Below are positions 27,614-29,778 of a stretch of 64,000 bases of DNA, in pieces (position 1 is the first letter of the stretch; each line of letters opens with the position of its first letter). The position numbers and the translations under genes are program-made. The stretch is from Escherichia coli O157:H7 (GTDB taxonomy: Bacteria; Pseudomonadota; Gammaproteobacteria; Enterobacterales; Enterobacteriaceae): the NCBI RefSeq assembly GCF_013167455.1, contig NZ_CP038328.1, one strand, 5' to 3'. The notes beneath the pieces are model-generated. The model was not told the origin of the DNA and ran no database searches. It was given only the letters and a program-made list of their open reading frames with translations.

Positions 27614-28084
27614 ATGTTATTTATTTTCTTGTCAGGACGACAAAATTTCACTATTGCAAGGATGCATATTATGGACAAAACAAATATTAACTTAATGGAA
27701 AGGTATCTTCTTCTGCTTGATCGATTCGTTGATAAACTCGCTGAATCAGGTTTCTCAGAGCAACGAATTATCGAACAATCATATCTTTTTTGTGCAGGAT
27801 TTTATATCAAATACCAGAGTGGTATAGAAAAAATGACCTTCTCCAACAGGGAGGTTGTTTTAACCTTTCTGCTACTTTCATATTATAGTCATATAAATAA
27901 ACTGGATGATGATTTGATCAACAAAGAGCGTATGAAGCATGTATGTTCTTCATTGATTAACTTTATAGTCAGTAATGGTAGCCGAACAGAGAAAGTCTAT
28001 GCTAATGAGAAAAGGAAATATGAGGCTTCAACTCTAAAAAGAGAATTATCGAAAAAGGATAAAAGGAAAAGATATAGGTTGTAG
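27614..28084 (+). CDS. Hypothetical 156-aa protein, Lys/Arg-rich C-terminus
   Basis: ORF in AT-rich DNA downstream of the recombinase module; start uncertain (27614 or 27665). Confidence 0.45.
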   Translation: MLFIFLSGRQNFTIARMHIMDKTNINLMERYLLLLDRFVDKLAESGFSEQRIIEQSYLFCAGFYIKYQSGIEKMTFSNREVVLTFLLLSYYSHINKLDDDLINKERMKHVCSSLINFIVSNGSRTEKVYANEKRKYEASTLKRELSKKDKRKRYRL

Positions 28085-28479
28085 TGTTTGTATGATTTTC
28101 ATTAGACTTACTTAATCTATAGTCTAAATTTTAATATTAGATTCGTAAATCTATAATTCCATGAATCTAATTAATGCTTAAAAGCATCCTCTAAGATGCT
28201 TTTACTGTTACCATGCATACATACCCAGAACCTTTAACAAACGATAATAGAGGGGAGTTGTGTATAACAACTCCCTGACCTTACTAAGGTTAGCGATGTT
28301 ATTCAGCATCATTCTGTCAAAGATTTAATTTCTTTGAAAAATACTAATTCTACCCCTTAAGTTAATAACTTCTGCTTGATCGTGTATTTTGGTAAGTTGG
28401 AGTACAATTTTTTGATTGGATCGTCAATAAGAAAAAGCTAGAATCCTTAGAAGGACATAGATTTTCATAGGGTTAAGAT

Positions 28480-29778
28480 ATGACGATTGCGAAGGATAGT
28501 TCGACTGATGAAATCATTCATGGAAATGATCTCCGTGGAATGGATGATTTTTACATTAAGACAACGAGTTTTGAATGCCCATACGAGCCTTGTAAAATTA
28601 AAGCCACACCTTGTAGTTTTACTATGAAACATGTTAATCAATCATATTTCAGATATGGCGATAAACATAAGGATGGATGTGGTATTCATGATCCAAGATA
28701 TAAAAACAATCATACTTCAAATGACGAAAGAAAACATAATTCGCCACCTGCTCCGGTTATATCACTTTTAAAAATTGATGTGAAACCAAGAGGTGGTGTT
28801 AAAAATGCCAGAAATATTAAAAATGAAAATCACAAGGATGAAAAAAAAGGTAATGAACATCCTGTATCTTCATCAAGTATTAAGCCAGTCGTTGACTATT
28901 ACATAAATAATAGCAATCATAATGAACAGCTATCAATCCCTCCATATGGCACGCGATCTTATAAAGATACATTTCAACTTATTTTTTACAAAAACAACAT
29001 ACGTTATTACAAACCTGCTATTTATTATGGTGTAGCCCAGTCTAATATTCGTCTGCATGAAGATTCAGATAAACATTGTATTACTTTCCTCGCAAGGGAT
29101 AAGAAAACCCAAAAACCATTTACGCTTGAAATTGATGTTTCTGACTGGAATAAAAGTCAGAAGGATGTGTTTTGGAAGGAATATGAAAAGCAAAGGAAGG
29201 AAGCTGATAGGTATTATAAGGGGCTTAAAGATAAAAGGAATGCTAAAAAATACTTGACGGTTTTCTTTTTTGGGATGCCGGATGAAAATGATAAGTTTCT
29301 ATTTAAGACAAACCACTTTAAATTAGTATATGTGGCTTTCTTGGGTAAATTTGAAAGCTCATATAATGATAGTAATTATTACATTGAAAATGATCTGTCT
29401 GTATCATCATTGAATGAACAACCCATTTCATTATCTGATATAGACCATAAAAATCATGAATATAATATTGAAACTTCATTAGATTTTAGTTCTCCTTTGC
29501 CAGAGCCAGAGCCAGAGCCAGAGCCAGAGCCAGAGCCAGAGCCAGAGCCAGAGCCAGAGCCAGAGCCAGAGCCAGAGCCAGAGCCAGAGCCAGAGCCAGA
29601 GCCAGAGCCAGAGCCAGAGCCAGAGCCAGAGCCAGAGCCAGAGCCAGAGCCAGAGCCAGAGCCAGAGCCAGAGCCAGAGCCAATAAGATCCTCTTTAAAG
29701 GAAAATACTGAGACTGTAGAAATGAACAGTAAAGTTTGGGGGAGGCTGAAAAAGATAATCACTTTCTTTAAAAAGTGA
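28480..29778 (+). CDS. Hypothetical 432-aa protein with Cys/His-rich N-terminus and about 30 tandem Pro-Glu dipeptides
   Basis: ORF with N-terminal C-x3-C...C...H...C-G-x-H pattern and a (PE)n tract encoded by the hexamer repeat at 29500-29681. Confidence 0.55.
29500..29681 (+). repeat. (CCAGAG)n hexanucleotide microsatellite, about 30 units, in frame within a CDS
   Basis: Perfect tandem gccaga repeats readable directly in the sequence. Confidence 0.95.

What the first reader, a model, noticed from the sequence alone, without database searches (positions are those of the whole stretch)
27614..29778. Cargo of the recombinase module: a 156-aa basic protein and a 432-aa protein with Cys/His-rich N-terminus and about 30 Pro-Glu repeats
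Both ORFs are AT-rich and have no motif I recognise. The larger one has an N-terminal C-x3-C...C...H...C-G-x-H pattern suggestive of metal binding, a central Lys/Tyr-rich region and a long flexible (PE)n linker before a short C-terminal tail. Their position directly 3' of the recombinase genes suggests passenger functions, which in mobile elements are often defence, adhesion or host-interaction proteins.
Basis: inference. Interest (0 to 1): 0.55.

Follow-up and report, generated by a model that had tools for sequence, protein, structure and literature searches.

The report
Membrane-tethered DNA-binder carrying O157's hypervariable repeat
The two genes sit in a decayed mobile island of E. coli O157:H7: the small one is a fixed backbone gene of that island family, and the large one is an uncharacterised zinc/OB-fold protein whose Pro-Glu spacer is the outbreak-typing repeat TR2/O157-10.

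Summary
The window is E. coli O157:H7. The recombinase trio plus the small gene after it is a published GInt (ginABCD) block. Here it is inserted in ypjA and cut off by an IS30 remnant.

Both ORFs are real and under purifying selection (dN/dS 0.1-0.3).

The "156-aa" ORF most likely starts at 27671, giving 137 aa with pI 9.5 and a helical-bundle model. It follows ginD in every related element I sampled. It behaves as backbone, not variable cargo.

The 432-aa ORF is accessory. It is a divergent long form of the Avs8B (PD-lambda-4 B) family, whose function is unknown. It has four parts:
- a CCHC zinc ribbon, CoiA_N-like
- an OB-fold domain
- a (PE)30 acidic spacer
- a cationic amphipathic C-terminal helix

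It has no signal peptide or transmembrane segment, so adhesin or secreted readings fail.

The PE array is exactly MLVA locus TR2/Vhec1/O157-10, the most unstable O157 VNTR. Complete genomes carry about 9 to 54 copies, nearly all differing in in-frame 6-bp steps.

Relatives also occur without any recombinase trio: at T6SS-adjacent defence islands, beside a relaxase, and in plasmid transfer regions. They also recur next to four unrelated multi-recombinase operons.

Most likely mechanism, by inference: a membrane-tethered nucleic-acid binder acting on DNA entering or leaving the cell. The architecture is well supported; the biological role is not.

The parts
22455..22703 (+). AlpA-like HTH regulator at the left side of the island. 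The DUF6387 gene that precedes it in other strains is deleted in this window.
   Evidence: PHROG excisionase/regulator hits. RefSeq names it an HTH regulator. Homology to the Salmonella and Klebsiella elements starts at 22291.
23020..24231 (+). ginA-like tyrosine recombinase
   Evidence: XerA/C/D-type NCBIfam hits. RefSeq names it a tyrosine recombinase.
24221..25546 (+). ginB-like tyrosine recombinase (RefSeq start about 24233)
   Evidence: NF041502 integrase_1, 320 bits; RefSeq annotation.
25543..27174 (+). ginC-like recombinase-fold protein (WP_001059531.1 / ECs_3510)
   Evidence: Listed as GinC in Additional file 10 of Idola et al. 2023. It has no NCBIfam family hit, and Pfam records no family for its 543-aa homologues, as described for GinC.
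27175..27573 (+). ginD-like small protein (WP_001052051.1 / ECs_3509)
   Evidence: Listed as GinD in the same file. It is 43-44% identical to the Pantoea and Enterobacter counterparts.
27671..28084 (+). A basic helical-bundle protein and a backbone gene of enterobacterial GInt-type elements.
28180..28203 (+). Terminator-like hairpin AAAAGCATC-CTCTAA-GATGCTTTT after ORF137. A second hairpin lies at 28253-28275.
   Evidence: Read from the sequence; scan.
28480..29778 (+). ORF432: long-form Avs8B-family protein
28480..28704 (+). aa 1-75: CCHC zinc-ribbon domain (C33, C38, H63, C67), CoiA_N-like
   Evidence: Conservation. pLDDT above 90. Pfam CoiA_N matches 4 of 107 relatives.
28870..29394 (+). 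aa 131-305: OB-fold domain with beta1-3, a long helix, then beta4-5. This is the part that matches PD-Lambda-4_B directly.
29499..29682 (+). (PE)30 spacer = VNTR locus TR2 / Vhec1 / O157-10 (unit GCCAGA, equal to TGGCTC on the other strand)
   Evidence: TRF. Published TR2 primers match exactly at 29195-29212 and 29799-29816. Locus names.
29689..29775 (+). aa 404-432: C-terminal tail ending in a cationic amphipathic helix, a putative membrane-targeting sequence
   Evidence: muH 0.66 and net charge +5. The same feature is found in nearly all of the 51 long-form relatives analysed.
29854..30249 (-). BamE-domain / SEN1984-family lipoprotein (RefSeq CDS about 29854-30156). It is convergent with ORF432 and co-inherited with it.
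30192..30947 (-). IS30 transposase remnant. It truncates the island: the p221, relaxase and NikA genes found in intact relatives are missing.
   Evidence: compared with intact loci L026 and L027.

Best explanation
SHOWN

The two ORFs are genes of a decayed GInt-type integrative, mobilizable island in ypjA of E. coli O157:H7.

ORF137 is a backbone gene that follows ginD in all related elements sampled.

ORF432, together with the convergent BamE-like lipoprotein gene, is a 2-kb accessory insertion into that backbone. ORF432 is a divergent long form of the Avs8B (PD-lambda-4 B) family. Its parts are:
- a CCHC zinc ribbon
- an OB-fold domain
- an acidic repetitive spacer
- a conserved cationic amphipathic C-terminal helix

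The spacer is the VNTR TR2/O157-10. Its length changes in frame-preserving 6-bp steps.

INFERRED MECHANISM

ORF432 is a cytoplasmic protein. Its folded, net-basic zinc-ribbon/OB module binds nucleic acid, most likely single-stranded DNA. This resembles zinc-bearing OB proteins such as MCM10, the MCM N-terminal domain and T4 gp32 (the gp32 comparison is from my own knowledge).

The C-terminal helix holds the protein on the inner face of the cytoplasmic membrane, as the MinD and FtsA tails do. The (PE)n segment is a flexible, negatively charged tether. Its length is free to drift by slipped-strand mispairing.

INFERRED ROLE (least certain)

The protein acts for the mobile element on DNA that enters or leaves the cell at the membrane. 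That could be exclusion or defence-accessory activity, or transfer and establishment.

ORF137 is probably a regulatory or accessory factor of the gin/relaxase backbone.
For: Identity of the region:
- 100% match to O157:H7 chromosomes.
- ginC and ginD appear in the published GInt census.
- Intact relatives in Pantoea sp. GD03673 and Enterobacter genomosp. O carry DUF6387, AlpA, ginABCD, ORF137, ORF432, BamE(-), p221(-), relaxase(-) and NikA(-) in that order.
- Backbone homology to the Klebsiella elements breaks exactly at the ORF137 stop and resumes before p221.

Family placement of ORF432:
- Direct PD-Lambda-4_B hit, E=1.9e-7.
- The ORF432-family profile finds 207 representative proteins.
- Seven roughly 300-aa representatives that I tested match PD-Lambda-4_B over their full length, E 1e-43 to 1e-57.

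Fold:
- AF2 model with pLDDT 84 and pTM 0.80. The strand-helix-strand order is that of an OB fold.
- Zinc ligands are conserved.
- CoiA_N matches some relatives.

Tether:
- The 51 long-form relatives have mean tail muH 0.70 against a background of 0.45, and mean tail charge +4.1 against +0.3 in short forms.
- An E. coli paralogous lineage, 61% identical, has a different repeat, (AEV)n of 9 bp, but the same tail, KIWTGIRKLISFFKK.
- Segment charges in ORF432: about +10 for the folded part (aa 76-305), -34 for the spacer, +4 for the tail. There is no signal peptide or transmembrane segment.

VNTR:
- Primers match exactly.
- Complete genomes carry about 9 to 54 copies, nearly all differing in steps of 6 bp.
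- Published mutation rate is 1.8e-3 per generation.

Selection: dN/dS 0.10-0.24.

Genomic contexts of relatives:
- Next to defence systems: Qat, CBASS, an OLD-type nuclease, type I R-M, PARIS-like genes.
- Next to a relaxase or inside plasmid transfer regions.
Against: - There is no experimental or direct computational evidence of zinc, DNA or membrane binding.
- ORF432 itself gives no Pfam CoiA_N hit.
- Avs8B, the only studied relative, was dispensable for Avs8 defence and gave no defence alone. A defence role is therefore unproven.
- The O157 copy sits in a truncated, probably immobile island, so any element-directed role may be vestigial there.
- The cationic tail could be a protein-docking peptide rather than a membrane anchor.
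- Contexts are heterogeneous, so no single partner gene is conserved.
Confidence: 0.5

Rival explanations
1. ORF432 is a transfer or establishment factor of the element. As a membrane-tethered ssDNA-binding protein, it would escort the relaxase-processed strand to or from a helper plasmid's type IV secretion system.
For: - In two gin clades it sits between the gin operon and the relaxase/NikA module.
- In Yersinia pseudotuberculosis it lies next to a MobQ relaxase, transcribed divergently from it.
- In Vibrio pVA1-type plasmids and a V. maritimus plasmid it lies inside the T4SS/transfer region.
- One relative lies on a metagenomic element that carries TrwC.
- The layout of OB fold, disordered linker and conserved tip mirrors SSB. 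This comparison rests on my own knowledge.
Against: - Many homologues lie in islands with no relaxase in view: the T6SS-adjacent E. coli, Klebsiella and Yersinia loci.
- Klebsiella, Salmonella and E. coli elements with the same relaxase backbone lack the gene, so it is not needed for that backbone.
Confidence: 0.2
2. ORF432, alone or together with ORF137 or the lipoprotein, is a dedicated anti-phage defence or superinfection-exclusion module.
For: - It belongs to a family that PADLOC lists as a defence component.
- Neighbours are repeatedly defence systems.
- The co-inherited lipoprotein matches a phage-encoded PHROG of unknown function.
Against: - Avs8B is dispensable for Avs8 defence and inactive alone.
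- No Avs8A-like STAND NTPase lies in the island.
- ORF137 and ORF432 are not consistently paired. ORF137 occurs without ORF432 in most elements, and ORF432 homologues occur without ORF137.
- No effector domain was detected.
Confidence: 0.12
3. ORF432 is a DNA-binding transcriptional regulator of neighbouring cargo, analogous to the regulators found upstream of many defence systems.
For: - It has a zinc-ribbon/OB nucleic-acid-binding module.
- It often lies directly upstream of defence operons on the same strand, for example before QatABCD and before a large helicase gene.
- One structural neighbour is annotated as a WYL-domain protein.
Against: - A membrane-targeting tail on a long acidic tether is odd for a repressor.
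- Orientation relative to neighbours is not conserved. It is convergent with integrase genes in Pseudomonas and Rhodococcus.
- OB folds are atypical for operator binding.
Confidence: 0.08
4. The genes are functionless relics in O157. The PE array is neutral junk that simply tolerates slippage.
For: - The island is truncated by IS30 and lacks its relaxase and its right end.
- The Xenorhabdus ORF137 copy and the Y. pseudotuberculosis ORF432 copy are pseudogenes.
- Repeat length varies freely from about 9 to 54 copies.
Against: - The ORF is annotated as an intact hypothetical protein, not a pseudogene, in all 89 of the 313 carrying E. coli genomes whose annotation was listed. Almost all length changes are in frame.
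- dN/dS is 0.1-0.2.
- The tail is conserved at 50-60% overall identity and behind two different repeat types.
Confidence: 0.07
5. ORF432 is a secreted or surface adhesin or host-interaction protein with procyclin (PARP)-like repeats.
For: - Pfam Trypan_PARP hit, E=8.5e-5.
- UniProt names on near-identical proteins.
- VNTRs are common in surface proteins. This point rests on my own knowledge.
Against: - The PARP hit covers only the PE run, aa 348-407.
- There is no signal peptide, lipobox or transmembrane segment.
- The folded part is a zinc ribbon plus OB fold, typical of intracellular nucleic-acid binders.
Confidence: 0.03

Closest known systems
Avs8B / PD-lambda-4 B, the second gene of the Avs8 (PD-lambda-4) anti-phage locus of E. 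coli ECOR07
   Same: Homologous over the zinc-ribbon and OB module. The evidence is a direct PADLOC hit plus a transitive full-length link through about 300-aa relatives. Like ORF432, it has no described function.
   Different: - ORF432 carries a 130-aa C-terminal extension of repeat spacer and amphipathic tail.
- It has no Avs8A STAND NTPase neighbour.
- Its direct HMM match covers only aa 151-284.
- It sits in a GInt-type island.
GInt genomic islands (ginABCD; Bardaji et al. 2017; Idola et al. 2023)
   Same: The four genes upstream have the GInt order: two tyrosine recombinases, one recombinase-fold protein, one small protein. ginC and ginD of O157 Sakai and EC4115 are in the published census.
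   Different: - This enterobacterial lineage carries a relaxase/NikA module and a conserved post-ginD gene (ORF137), neither described for GInts. GInts were called putatively non-mobilizable.
- The O157 copy is truncated.
MLVA locus TR2 = Vhec1 = O157-10 of E. coli O157:H7
   Same: Identical locus. The published primers flank the array and the unit is TGGCTC. Copy number is hypervariable.
   Different: The typing papers I read use the locus as an anonymous marker. One says only that ORFs hosting the O157 VNTRs encode hypothetical proteins. A full-text search for the Sakai locus tags found nothing.
OB-fold ssDNA-binding proteins with a disordered linker and a conserved C-terminal tip (bacterial SSB), and zinc-bearing OB proteins (MCM10, MCM N-terminal domain, T4 gp32)
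   Same: OB topology in the model. The best structural matches are ssDNA-binding OB folds, including MCM10 and the MCM N-terminal domain. The layout is folded binder, then flexible linker, then short conserved tip.
   Different: - There is no sequence homology.
- Charges are reversed relative to SSB: the linker is acidic and the tip is basic and amphipathic.
- The zinc ribbon is a separate N-terminal domain.
- DNA binding is untested.
C-terminal amphipathic membrane-targeting sequences of MinD and FtsA
   Same: A short terminal cationic amphipathic helix follows a flexible segment.
   Different: The similarity is analogy only; the comparison rests on my own knowledge. Membrane binding is untested.

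Membership tests
Avs8B / PD-Lambda-4_B (PADLOC PDLC03992) | Significant match to the family HMM | tested here: met
   ORF432 aa 151-284 match profile positions 161-294 of 303, E=1.9e-7. Relatives found with the ORF432-family profile match the HMM over their full length, E 1e-43 to 1e-57.
Avs8B / PD-Lambda-4_B (PADLOC PDLC03992) | N-terminal CxxC...H...C motif and full-length collinearity of about 300 aa | tested here: met
   In the 107-sequence alignment C33 and C67 are invariant and C38 and H63 are at least 90% conserved. The profile aligns positions 1 to about 290 of most relatives.
Avs8B / PD-Lambda-4_B (PADLOC PDLC03992) | Encoded in an operon with the STAND NTPase Avs8A (Mrr nuclease plus P-loop) | tested here: not met
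   No such gene lies in the island or window neighbourhood. None of the homologue loci examined showed one.
GInt (ginABCD islands) | Operon of two tyrosine recombinases, a recombinase-fold protein lacking catalytic residues, and a small protein, in that order | tested here: met
   The 403-aa and 441-aa proteins hit tyrosine-recombinase models. The 543-aa protein has no hit. The 132-aa gene follows.
GInt (ginABCD islands) | Homology to GinC and GinD of the reference GInt | tested here: met
   WP_001059531.1 and WP_001052051.1 (ECs_3510 and ECs_3509) are listed among the PSI-BLAST-derived ginC-ginD blocks in Additional file 10 of PMC10214605.
GInt (ginABCD islands) | Flanking imperfect direct repeats (attL/attR) and an AT-rich 3' end; excision as a circle | tested here: inconclusive
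   The right end is replaced by an IS30 remnant and a prophage. A repeat scan of 22200-30300 found only short two-copy repeats, of a length the tool warns are often chance matches, apart from the VNTR. Excision cannot be tested with these tools.
MLVA locus TR2 / Vhec1 / O157-10 | Amplified by the published TR2 primers; 6-bp unit TGGCTC; highly polymorphic copy number | tested here: met
   Exact primer matches at 29195-29212 (+) and 29799-29816 (-). The unit is GCCAGA. Complete genomes carry about 9 to 54 copies.
OB-fold nucleic-acid-binding domain | Five-stranded barrel with a helix between strands 3 and 4; structural similarity to known OB folds | tested here: met
   [not shown]
OB-fold nucleic-acid-binding domain | Binds ssDNA or RNA | not testable with these tools
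   Needs EMSA or fluorescence anisotropy with purified protein.
CoiA_N (PF25164) zinc-finger domain | Match to the Pfam model | tested here: inconclusive
   ORF432 itself has no hit. One of 107 relatives matches at E<=0.001 and four at E<=0.1.
Amphipathic membrane-targeting sequence (MinD/FtsA type) | Terminal cationic amphipathic helix | tested here: met
   muH 0.66 and charge +5 for ORF432. The 51 long forms have mean muH 0.70 against a background of 0.45. Membrane binding itself cannot be tested here.
Trypanosome procyclin (Trypan_PARP, PF05887) | Homology beyond the acidic dipeptide repeat | tested here: not met
   The hit is confined to aa 348-407, the PE run. This is a composition artefact.

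The most novel reading that the evidence does not exclude
Avs8B-family proteins may not be partners of the Avs8 sensor at all. They could be an autonomous, widespread class of mobile-element 'junction' genes.

Under this reading they are zinc-ribbon/OB nucleic-acid binders. In their long forms they are tethered to the inner membrane. They recur at the boundary between multi-tyrosine-recombinase operons and their cargo. I saw this beside three gin clades, a Pseudomonas four-gene recombinase operon, and a Rhodococcus trio with a DUF6262 gene. They also recur in plasmid transfer regions.

They would act on DNA entering or leaving the cell. The hypervariable O157-10 VNTR would then be a rapidly mutating tuner of tether length, generating phenotypic variation within outbreaks.
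Probability: 0.2. Interest if true: 0.7.

Novelty: new variant of a known kind. Interest (0 to 1): 0.45.

Why it matters
1. The result gives a protein context to the most unstable VNTR of E. coli O157:H7. This locus was dropped from PulseNet typing for being too variable. Each allele change lengthens or shortens an acidic tether inside a conserved, selected protein. It does not alter non-coding DNA.

2. It links 'Avs8B', an unexplained and dispensable gene of a characterised anti-phage locus, to a large uncharacterised family. The search found 207 representative clusters. Structural relatives occur in Proteobacteria, Actinobacteria and Bacteroidota. The family has a predicted nucleic-acid-binding fold and, in about a third of members, a membrane tether. 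It keeps turning up on mobile elements beside recombinase, relaxase and defence modules.

3. It shows that enterobacterial GInts are mobilizable islands with a conserved post-ginD gene. They ferry defence systems.

All functional statements remain predictions.

Tried and rejected
**Searches that found nothing informative**
- Pfam, NCBIfam and PHROGs on both proteins gave only low-complexity or noise hits: PARP, DNA pol III tau, Hyccin.
- A PDB sequence search with the family profile found nothing.
- AFDB50 neighbours of ORF432 are almost all uncharacterised or carry only automatic names.
- tblastn of ORF432 against 50,697 phage records found no match.
- Rfam on 27000-31400 gave nothing above noise.
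- The repeat scan for att-like repeats gave only short two-copy matches apart from the VNTR.
- Searching Sakai locus tags ECs3506-3510 in the literature gave nothing.
- A search on Z-numbers returned only unrelated papers.

**Leads that failed**
- I could not establish whether the ECOR07 Avs8 locus lies in a GInt. I could not retrieve its sequence, and the papers give no context.
- The P. aeruginosa recombinase operon next to an Avs8B-like gene is not a gin homologue. There is only a 28% match over one catalytic domain.

**Readings rejected**
- I rejected the adhesin/secreted reading and the phase-variation (on/off) reading. Nearly all length differences are multiples of 6 bp, so the frame is kept.
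Full report
**Where the window comes from**

Bases 22400-30300 are 100% identical to many E. coli O157:H7 chromosomes, including TR01, EC4115 and SS52. In all, 303 of 5,426 complete E. coli genomes hold at least 80% of this stretch.

RefSeq annotation of strain F6667 gives the following order:
- tRNA-Ile, ypjCB and ypjA/ehaD (disrupted)
- a DUF6387 gene and an HTH regulator
- two tyrosine recombinases and a 'DNA-binding protein'
- three hypothetical proteins
- a BamE-domain lipoprotein on the minus strand
- an IS30 remnant
- lambdoid late genes, then espW and nleG

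The region has 30-34% GC against about 50% around it.

**The observation**

Both ORFs exist at the stated coordinates.

The first ORF most likely starts at 27671, giving 137 aa. RefSeq uses that start, and every homologue begins M(D/K/E)K there. It is basic, with pI 9.47.

The second ORF has 432 aa and these features:
- The motif is C33-x4-C38...C45...H63...C67-G-I-H70, so the first spacing is x4, not x3.
- There are exactly 30 PE dipeptides. They are encoded by a perfect GCCAGA x30.7 array at 29499-29682.
- A 29-aa tail follows the array.

Both genes are under purifying selection. dN/dS is 0.10-0.24 for ORF432 (aa 1-335) and 0.10-0.32 for ORF137, across copies from six or more genera. They are real genes.

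**The recombinase module is a published GInt**

The gene order matches ginABCD: recombinase, recombinase, a 543-aa protein with no family hit, then a 132-aa protein.

The 543-aa and 132-aa proteins are WP_001059531.1 and WP_001052051.1 (Sakai ECs_3510 and ECs_3509). They appear in the ginC-ginD census of Idola et al. 2023, Additional file 10.

**The PE array is a classic typing locus**

The TR2 primers of Noller et al., as printed in PMC2246123, match exactly at 29195-29212 (+) and 29799-29816 (-). The printed repeat unit, TGGCTC, is the reverse complement of the array unit.

TR2 is also called Vhec1 and O157-10. The literature describes it as follows:
- It is the most polymorphic O157 VNTR.
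- Its mutation rate is 1.8e-3 per generation.
- It shows frequent multi-unit jumps.
- It was removed from the PulseNet scheme and from the Japanese scheme because it changes within outbreaks.

In complete genomes the array ranges from about 9 to 54 copies. Nearly all alleles differ by multiples of 6 bp, so the reading frame is kept.

Orthologues in other bacteria have short runs:
- 3 in Pantoea ananatis
- 5 in Enterobacter and Xenorhabdus
- 8 in Erwinia
- 10 in Pantoea sp. GD03673

O121 has 32. The large expansions I saw are all in E. coli lineages.

The neighbouring TATTTC x11.8 array at 31024-31094 is a second MLVA locus, TR1/Vhec4/O157-9.

**What ORF432 is**

Pfam and NCBIfam give only low-complexity hits on the acidic repeat region: PARP and DNA pol III tau.

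PADLOC gives a match to PD-Lambda-4_B at E=1.9e-7, covering aa 151-284. PD-lambda-4 has been renamed Avs8. Avs8A is a capsid-sensing STAND NTPase. Avs8B has no known similarity, is dispensable for lambda defence, and is inactive alone.

Close homologues at 50-98% identity occur across Enterobacterales and in Moritella.

A profile built from them finds 207 representative proteins at E<=1e-3. Most are about 300 aa and align over their full length. Seven of these that I tested match PD-Lambda-4_B end to end, at E 1e-43 to 1e-57. ORF432 is therefore a divergent, extended member of the Avs8B family.

Structural neighbours in AFDB50 are almost all unnamed. They span Proteobacteria, Actinobacteria and Bacteroidota.

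**Architecture**

An AlphaFold2 model of aa 1-340 has pLDDT 84 and pTM 0.80. It shows three regions:
- an N-terminal domain, aa 1-70
- a poorly ordered linker that contains the invariant NSPPAPxISLL motif
- a beta-rich domain, aa 131-305

In the 107-member alignment, C33 and C67 are invariant. C38, F57 and H63 are at least 90% conserved. This points to a CCHC zinc site. Pfam CoiA_N matches 4 of the 107 relatives, but not ORF432 itself.

There is no signal peptide or transmembrane segment.

Net charge by segment:
- about +10 for the linker and OB region, aa 76-305
- -34 for the spacer
- +4 for the tail

**The tail and spacer are a family feature**

Of the 138 family members of at least 280 aa that I analysed, 51 are long forms of at least 350 aa. 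Nearly all long forms end in a cationic amphipathic helix.

| Measure | Long forms | Comparison |
|---|---|---|
| Mean tail hydrophobic moment | 0.70 | 0.45 (background) |
| Mean tail charge | +4.1 | +0.3 (short forms) |

A second E. coli lineage, 61% identical and found at T6SS-adjacent islands, has a different tandem repeat, (AEV)n with a 9-bp unit. The assemblies carry a run of Ns within the gene immediately before this array. It keeps a homologous tail, KIWTGIRKLISFFKK.

I infer a flexible acidic tether ending in a membrane-targeting helix, by analogy with MinD and FtsA. That analogy rests on my own knowledge.

**What ORF137 is**

The search found 343 homologue clusters. The best 120 listed are 86-99% identical to the O157 protein, and the named ones come from Enterobacter, Photorhabdus, Serratia, Salmonella, Klebsiella, Citrobacter and Kosakonia.

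A second subfamily, 24-29% identical, occurs in Pantoea and Erwinia.

The model is a helical bundle with a long basic C-terminal helix, pLDDT 83. The fold matches are generic.

In Klebsiella, Salmonella and E. coli SCU-124 the gene order is: DUF6387, AlpA, ginA, ginB, ginC, ginD, ORF137, then p221, relaxase and NikA on the minus strand, then cargo. The cargo includes Lamassu-like genes, HxsD/radical-SAM genes, PIN, patatin and R-M systems.

ORF137 follows ginD in every gin-bearing locus whose sequence extends past that slot. This holds across three gin clades that are only 29-50% identical to each other. It behaves as a backbone gene, not as variable cargo.

**Where ORF432 sits**

Intact close relatives of the O157 island occur in Pantoea sp. 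GD03673 and Enterobacter genomosp. O. Their gin proteins are 87-96% identical to the O157 ones. They carry ORF432 and the BamE-like gene as a 2-kb insertion between ORF137 and p221. The O157 copy is cut after the lipoprotein gene by the IS30 remnant.

In the Pantoea ananatis, Erwinia, E. cloacae and P. brenneri clade, the homologue lies between ginD and the ORF137 homologue.

O121 has the same ypjA site and near-identical copies of the downstream genes: ORF137 at 90%, ORF432 at 97%, and the lipoprotein at 98%. Its gin operon belongs to a third clade, 32-47% identical to the O157 operon. The locus is therefore mosaic.

**Homologues away from gin operons**

- At the end of T6SS clusters in E. 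coli, K. aerogenes and Y. frederiksenii, and on a short E. albertii contig without context. Neighbours include Qat, CBASS, an OLD-type nuclease and a NERD-UvrD helicase.
- After a type I R-M system in Providencia.
- Next to a MobQ relaxase and a PARIS-like gene pair in Y. pseudotuberculosis.
- Inside the transfer region of Vibrio pVA1-type plasmids and of a V. maritimus plasmid.
- On an element that carries TrwC.

No phage in INPHARED carries one.

Avs8B-like genes also lie next to unrelated multi-recombinase operons:
- A P. aeruginosa four-gene recombinase operon, beside CBASS in pBJ86 or a UvrD-helicase gene in p1B17416.
- A recombinase trio with DUF6262 in Rhodococcus opacus.
- A single integrase in P. 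putida, next to a gene fragment.

By my count, multi-recombinase operons neighbour the gene in 4 of about 13 independent contexts. That is suggestive. It is not a statistical test.

**Interpretation**

Shown: the identity of the island, the VNTR, the family membership, the domain architecture and the purifying selection.

Inferred: ORF432 binds nucleic acid, probably ssDNA, through its zinc-ribbon/OB module. It is held at the inner face of the membrane by its tail. The PE tether length drifts by replication slippage. The protein serves the mobile element in handling DNA that enters or leaves the cell.

I cannot separate a defence or exclusion role from a transfer or establishment role. Avs8B's dispensability argues against a simple defence-component reading.

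The adhesin/PARP reading is rejected.

ORF137 probably has a regulatory or accessory role in the backbone. Nothing more specific is supported.

**Novelty**

The VNTR and the GInt module are already known. I found no literature on the two proteins.

The following are new observations of moderate interest:
- placing ORF432 in the Avs8B family
- its long-form architecture with a tether and tail
- the family's recurrent association with recombinase and relaxase modules

Noticed in passing
[not shown]
   Followed up: yes
window 22250-22455, compared with L001 9968-12000: This strain lacks the DUF6387 gene and the 3' part of ypjA that precede the AlpA-like gene in F6667 and O121. The ypjA ORF runs to 22397, and homology to the island begins at 22291. 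This looks like an IS-associated deletion.
   Followed up: partly
L020 (E. coli O121 RM8352) 3526-13664: The ypjA insertion site and the downstream genes ORF137, ORF432 and the lipoprotein are the same, at 90-98% identity. The gin operon belongs to a different clade, 32-47% identical to O157 and 35-51% to the Pantoea clade, and is disrupted by IS600. The gin cassette and its flanks have separate histories.
   Followed up: partly
L002-L004, about 10900-11320: The 61%-identical E. coli homologue at T6SS-adjacent islands carries a different tandem repeat, (AEV)n with a 9-bp unit. The assemblies carry a run of Ns within the gene just before it, which explains why many database entries are 'partial'. 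The C-terminal tail is conserved.
   Followed up: partly
window 29854-30249 (-); L006, L026, L027: The BamE-domain/SEN1984-family lipoprotein is 97-100% identical between E. coli, Xenorhabdus, Pantoea and Enterobacter. The adjacent ORF432 N-terminal region is about 99% identical in Pantoea and Enterobacter but clearly more diverged in Xenorhabdus (dN about 0.10). The lipoprotein matches phage family phrog_3135, of unknown function.
   Followed up: no
window 29790-29820, compared with L014 9415-9450; also 27685-27723 compared with 28354-28382: The terminator hairpin after ORF432 (AAAAAGCCCGTAGG...CTGCGGGCT) resembles the one after ORF137 in Klebsiella elements. A 14-nt exact repeat with an adjacent inverted match links the 5' end of ORF137 to the region upstream of ORF432. 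Gene order is 137 then 432 here, but 432 then 137 in Xenorhabdus and the Pantoea clade. This suggests a past duplication or rearrangement.
   Followed up: partly
H128, NZ_CP017436.1 (O157:H7 strain 2149) 1224340-1224993: The match to 29300-29900 is 53 bp longer than the query, not a multiple of 6. This is either a frameshifted ORF432 allele or an assembly error in the repeat.
   Followed up: no
L014-L019, L026, L027, L040: Enterobacterial GInt-type elements carry a relaxase/NikA module and defence cargo: Lamassu-like genes, HxsD/radical-SAM genes, PIN, patatin and R-M systems. Some also have a P4-type integrase next to a tRNA gene. GInts were described as putatively non-mobilizable.
   Followed up: partly
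L033 6992-14291; L038 7124-14115: Avs8B-like genes sit just past the 3' end of unrelated multi-recombinase operons. One is on a P. aeruginosa megaplasmid beside a type II CBASS. The other is on a Rhodococcus opacus linear plasmid beside AbiE and RES genes.
   Followed up: partly
L006 11176-11660 (Xenorhabdus bovienii); L032 9001-10041 (Y. pseudotuberculosis): The Xenorhabdus ORF137 copy has an internal stop. The Yersinia ORF432 homologue is interrupted after 183 codons and is unannotated. Both are decaying copies.
   Followed up: no
window 22005-22092: An imperfect 12/24/36-bp repeat encodes the PNPNPKPDPKPDP linker of the YpjA/EhaD autotransporter passenger.
   Followed up: no
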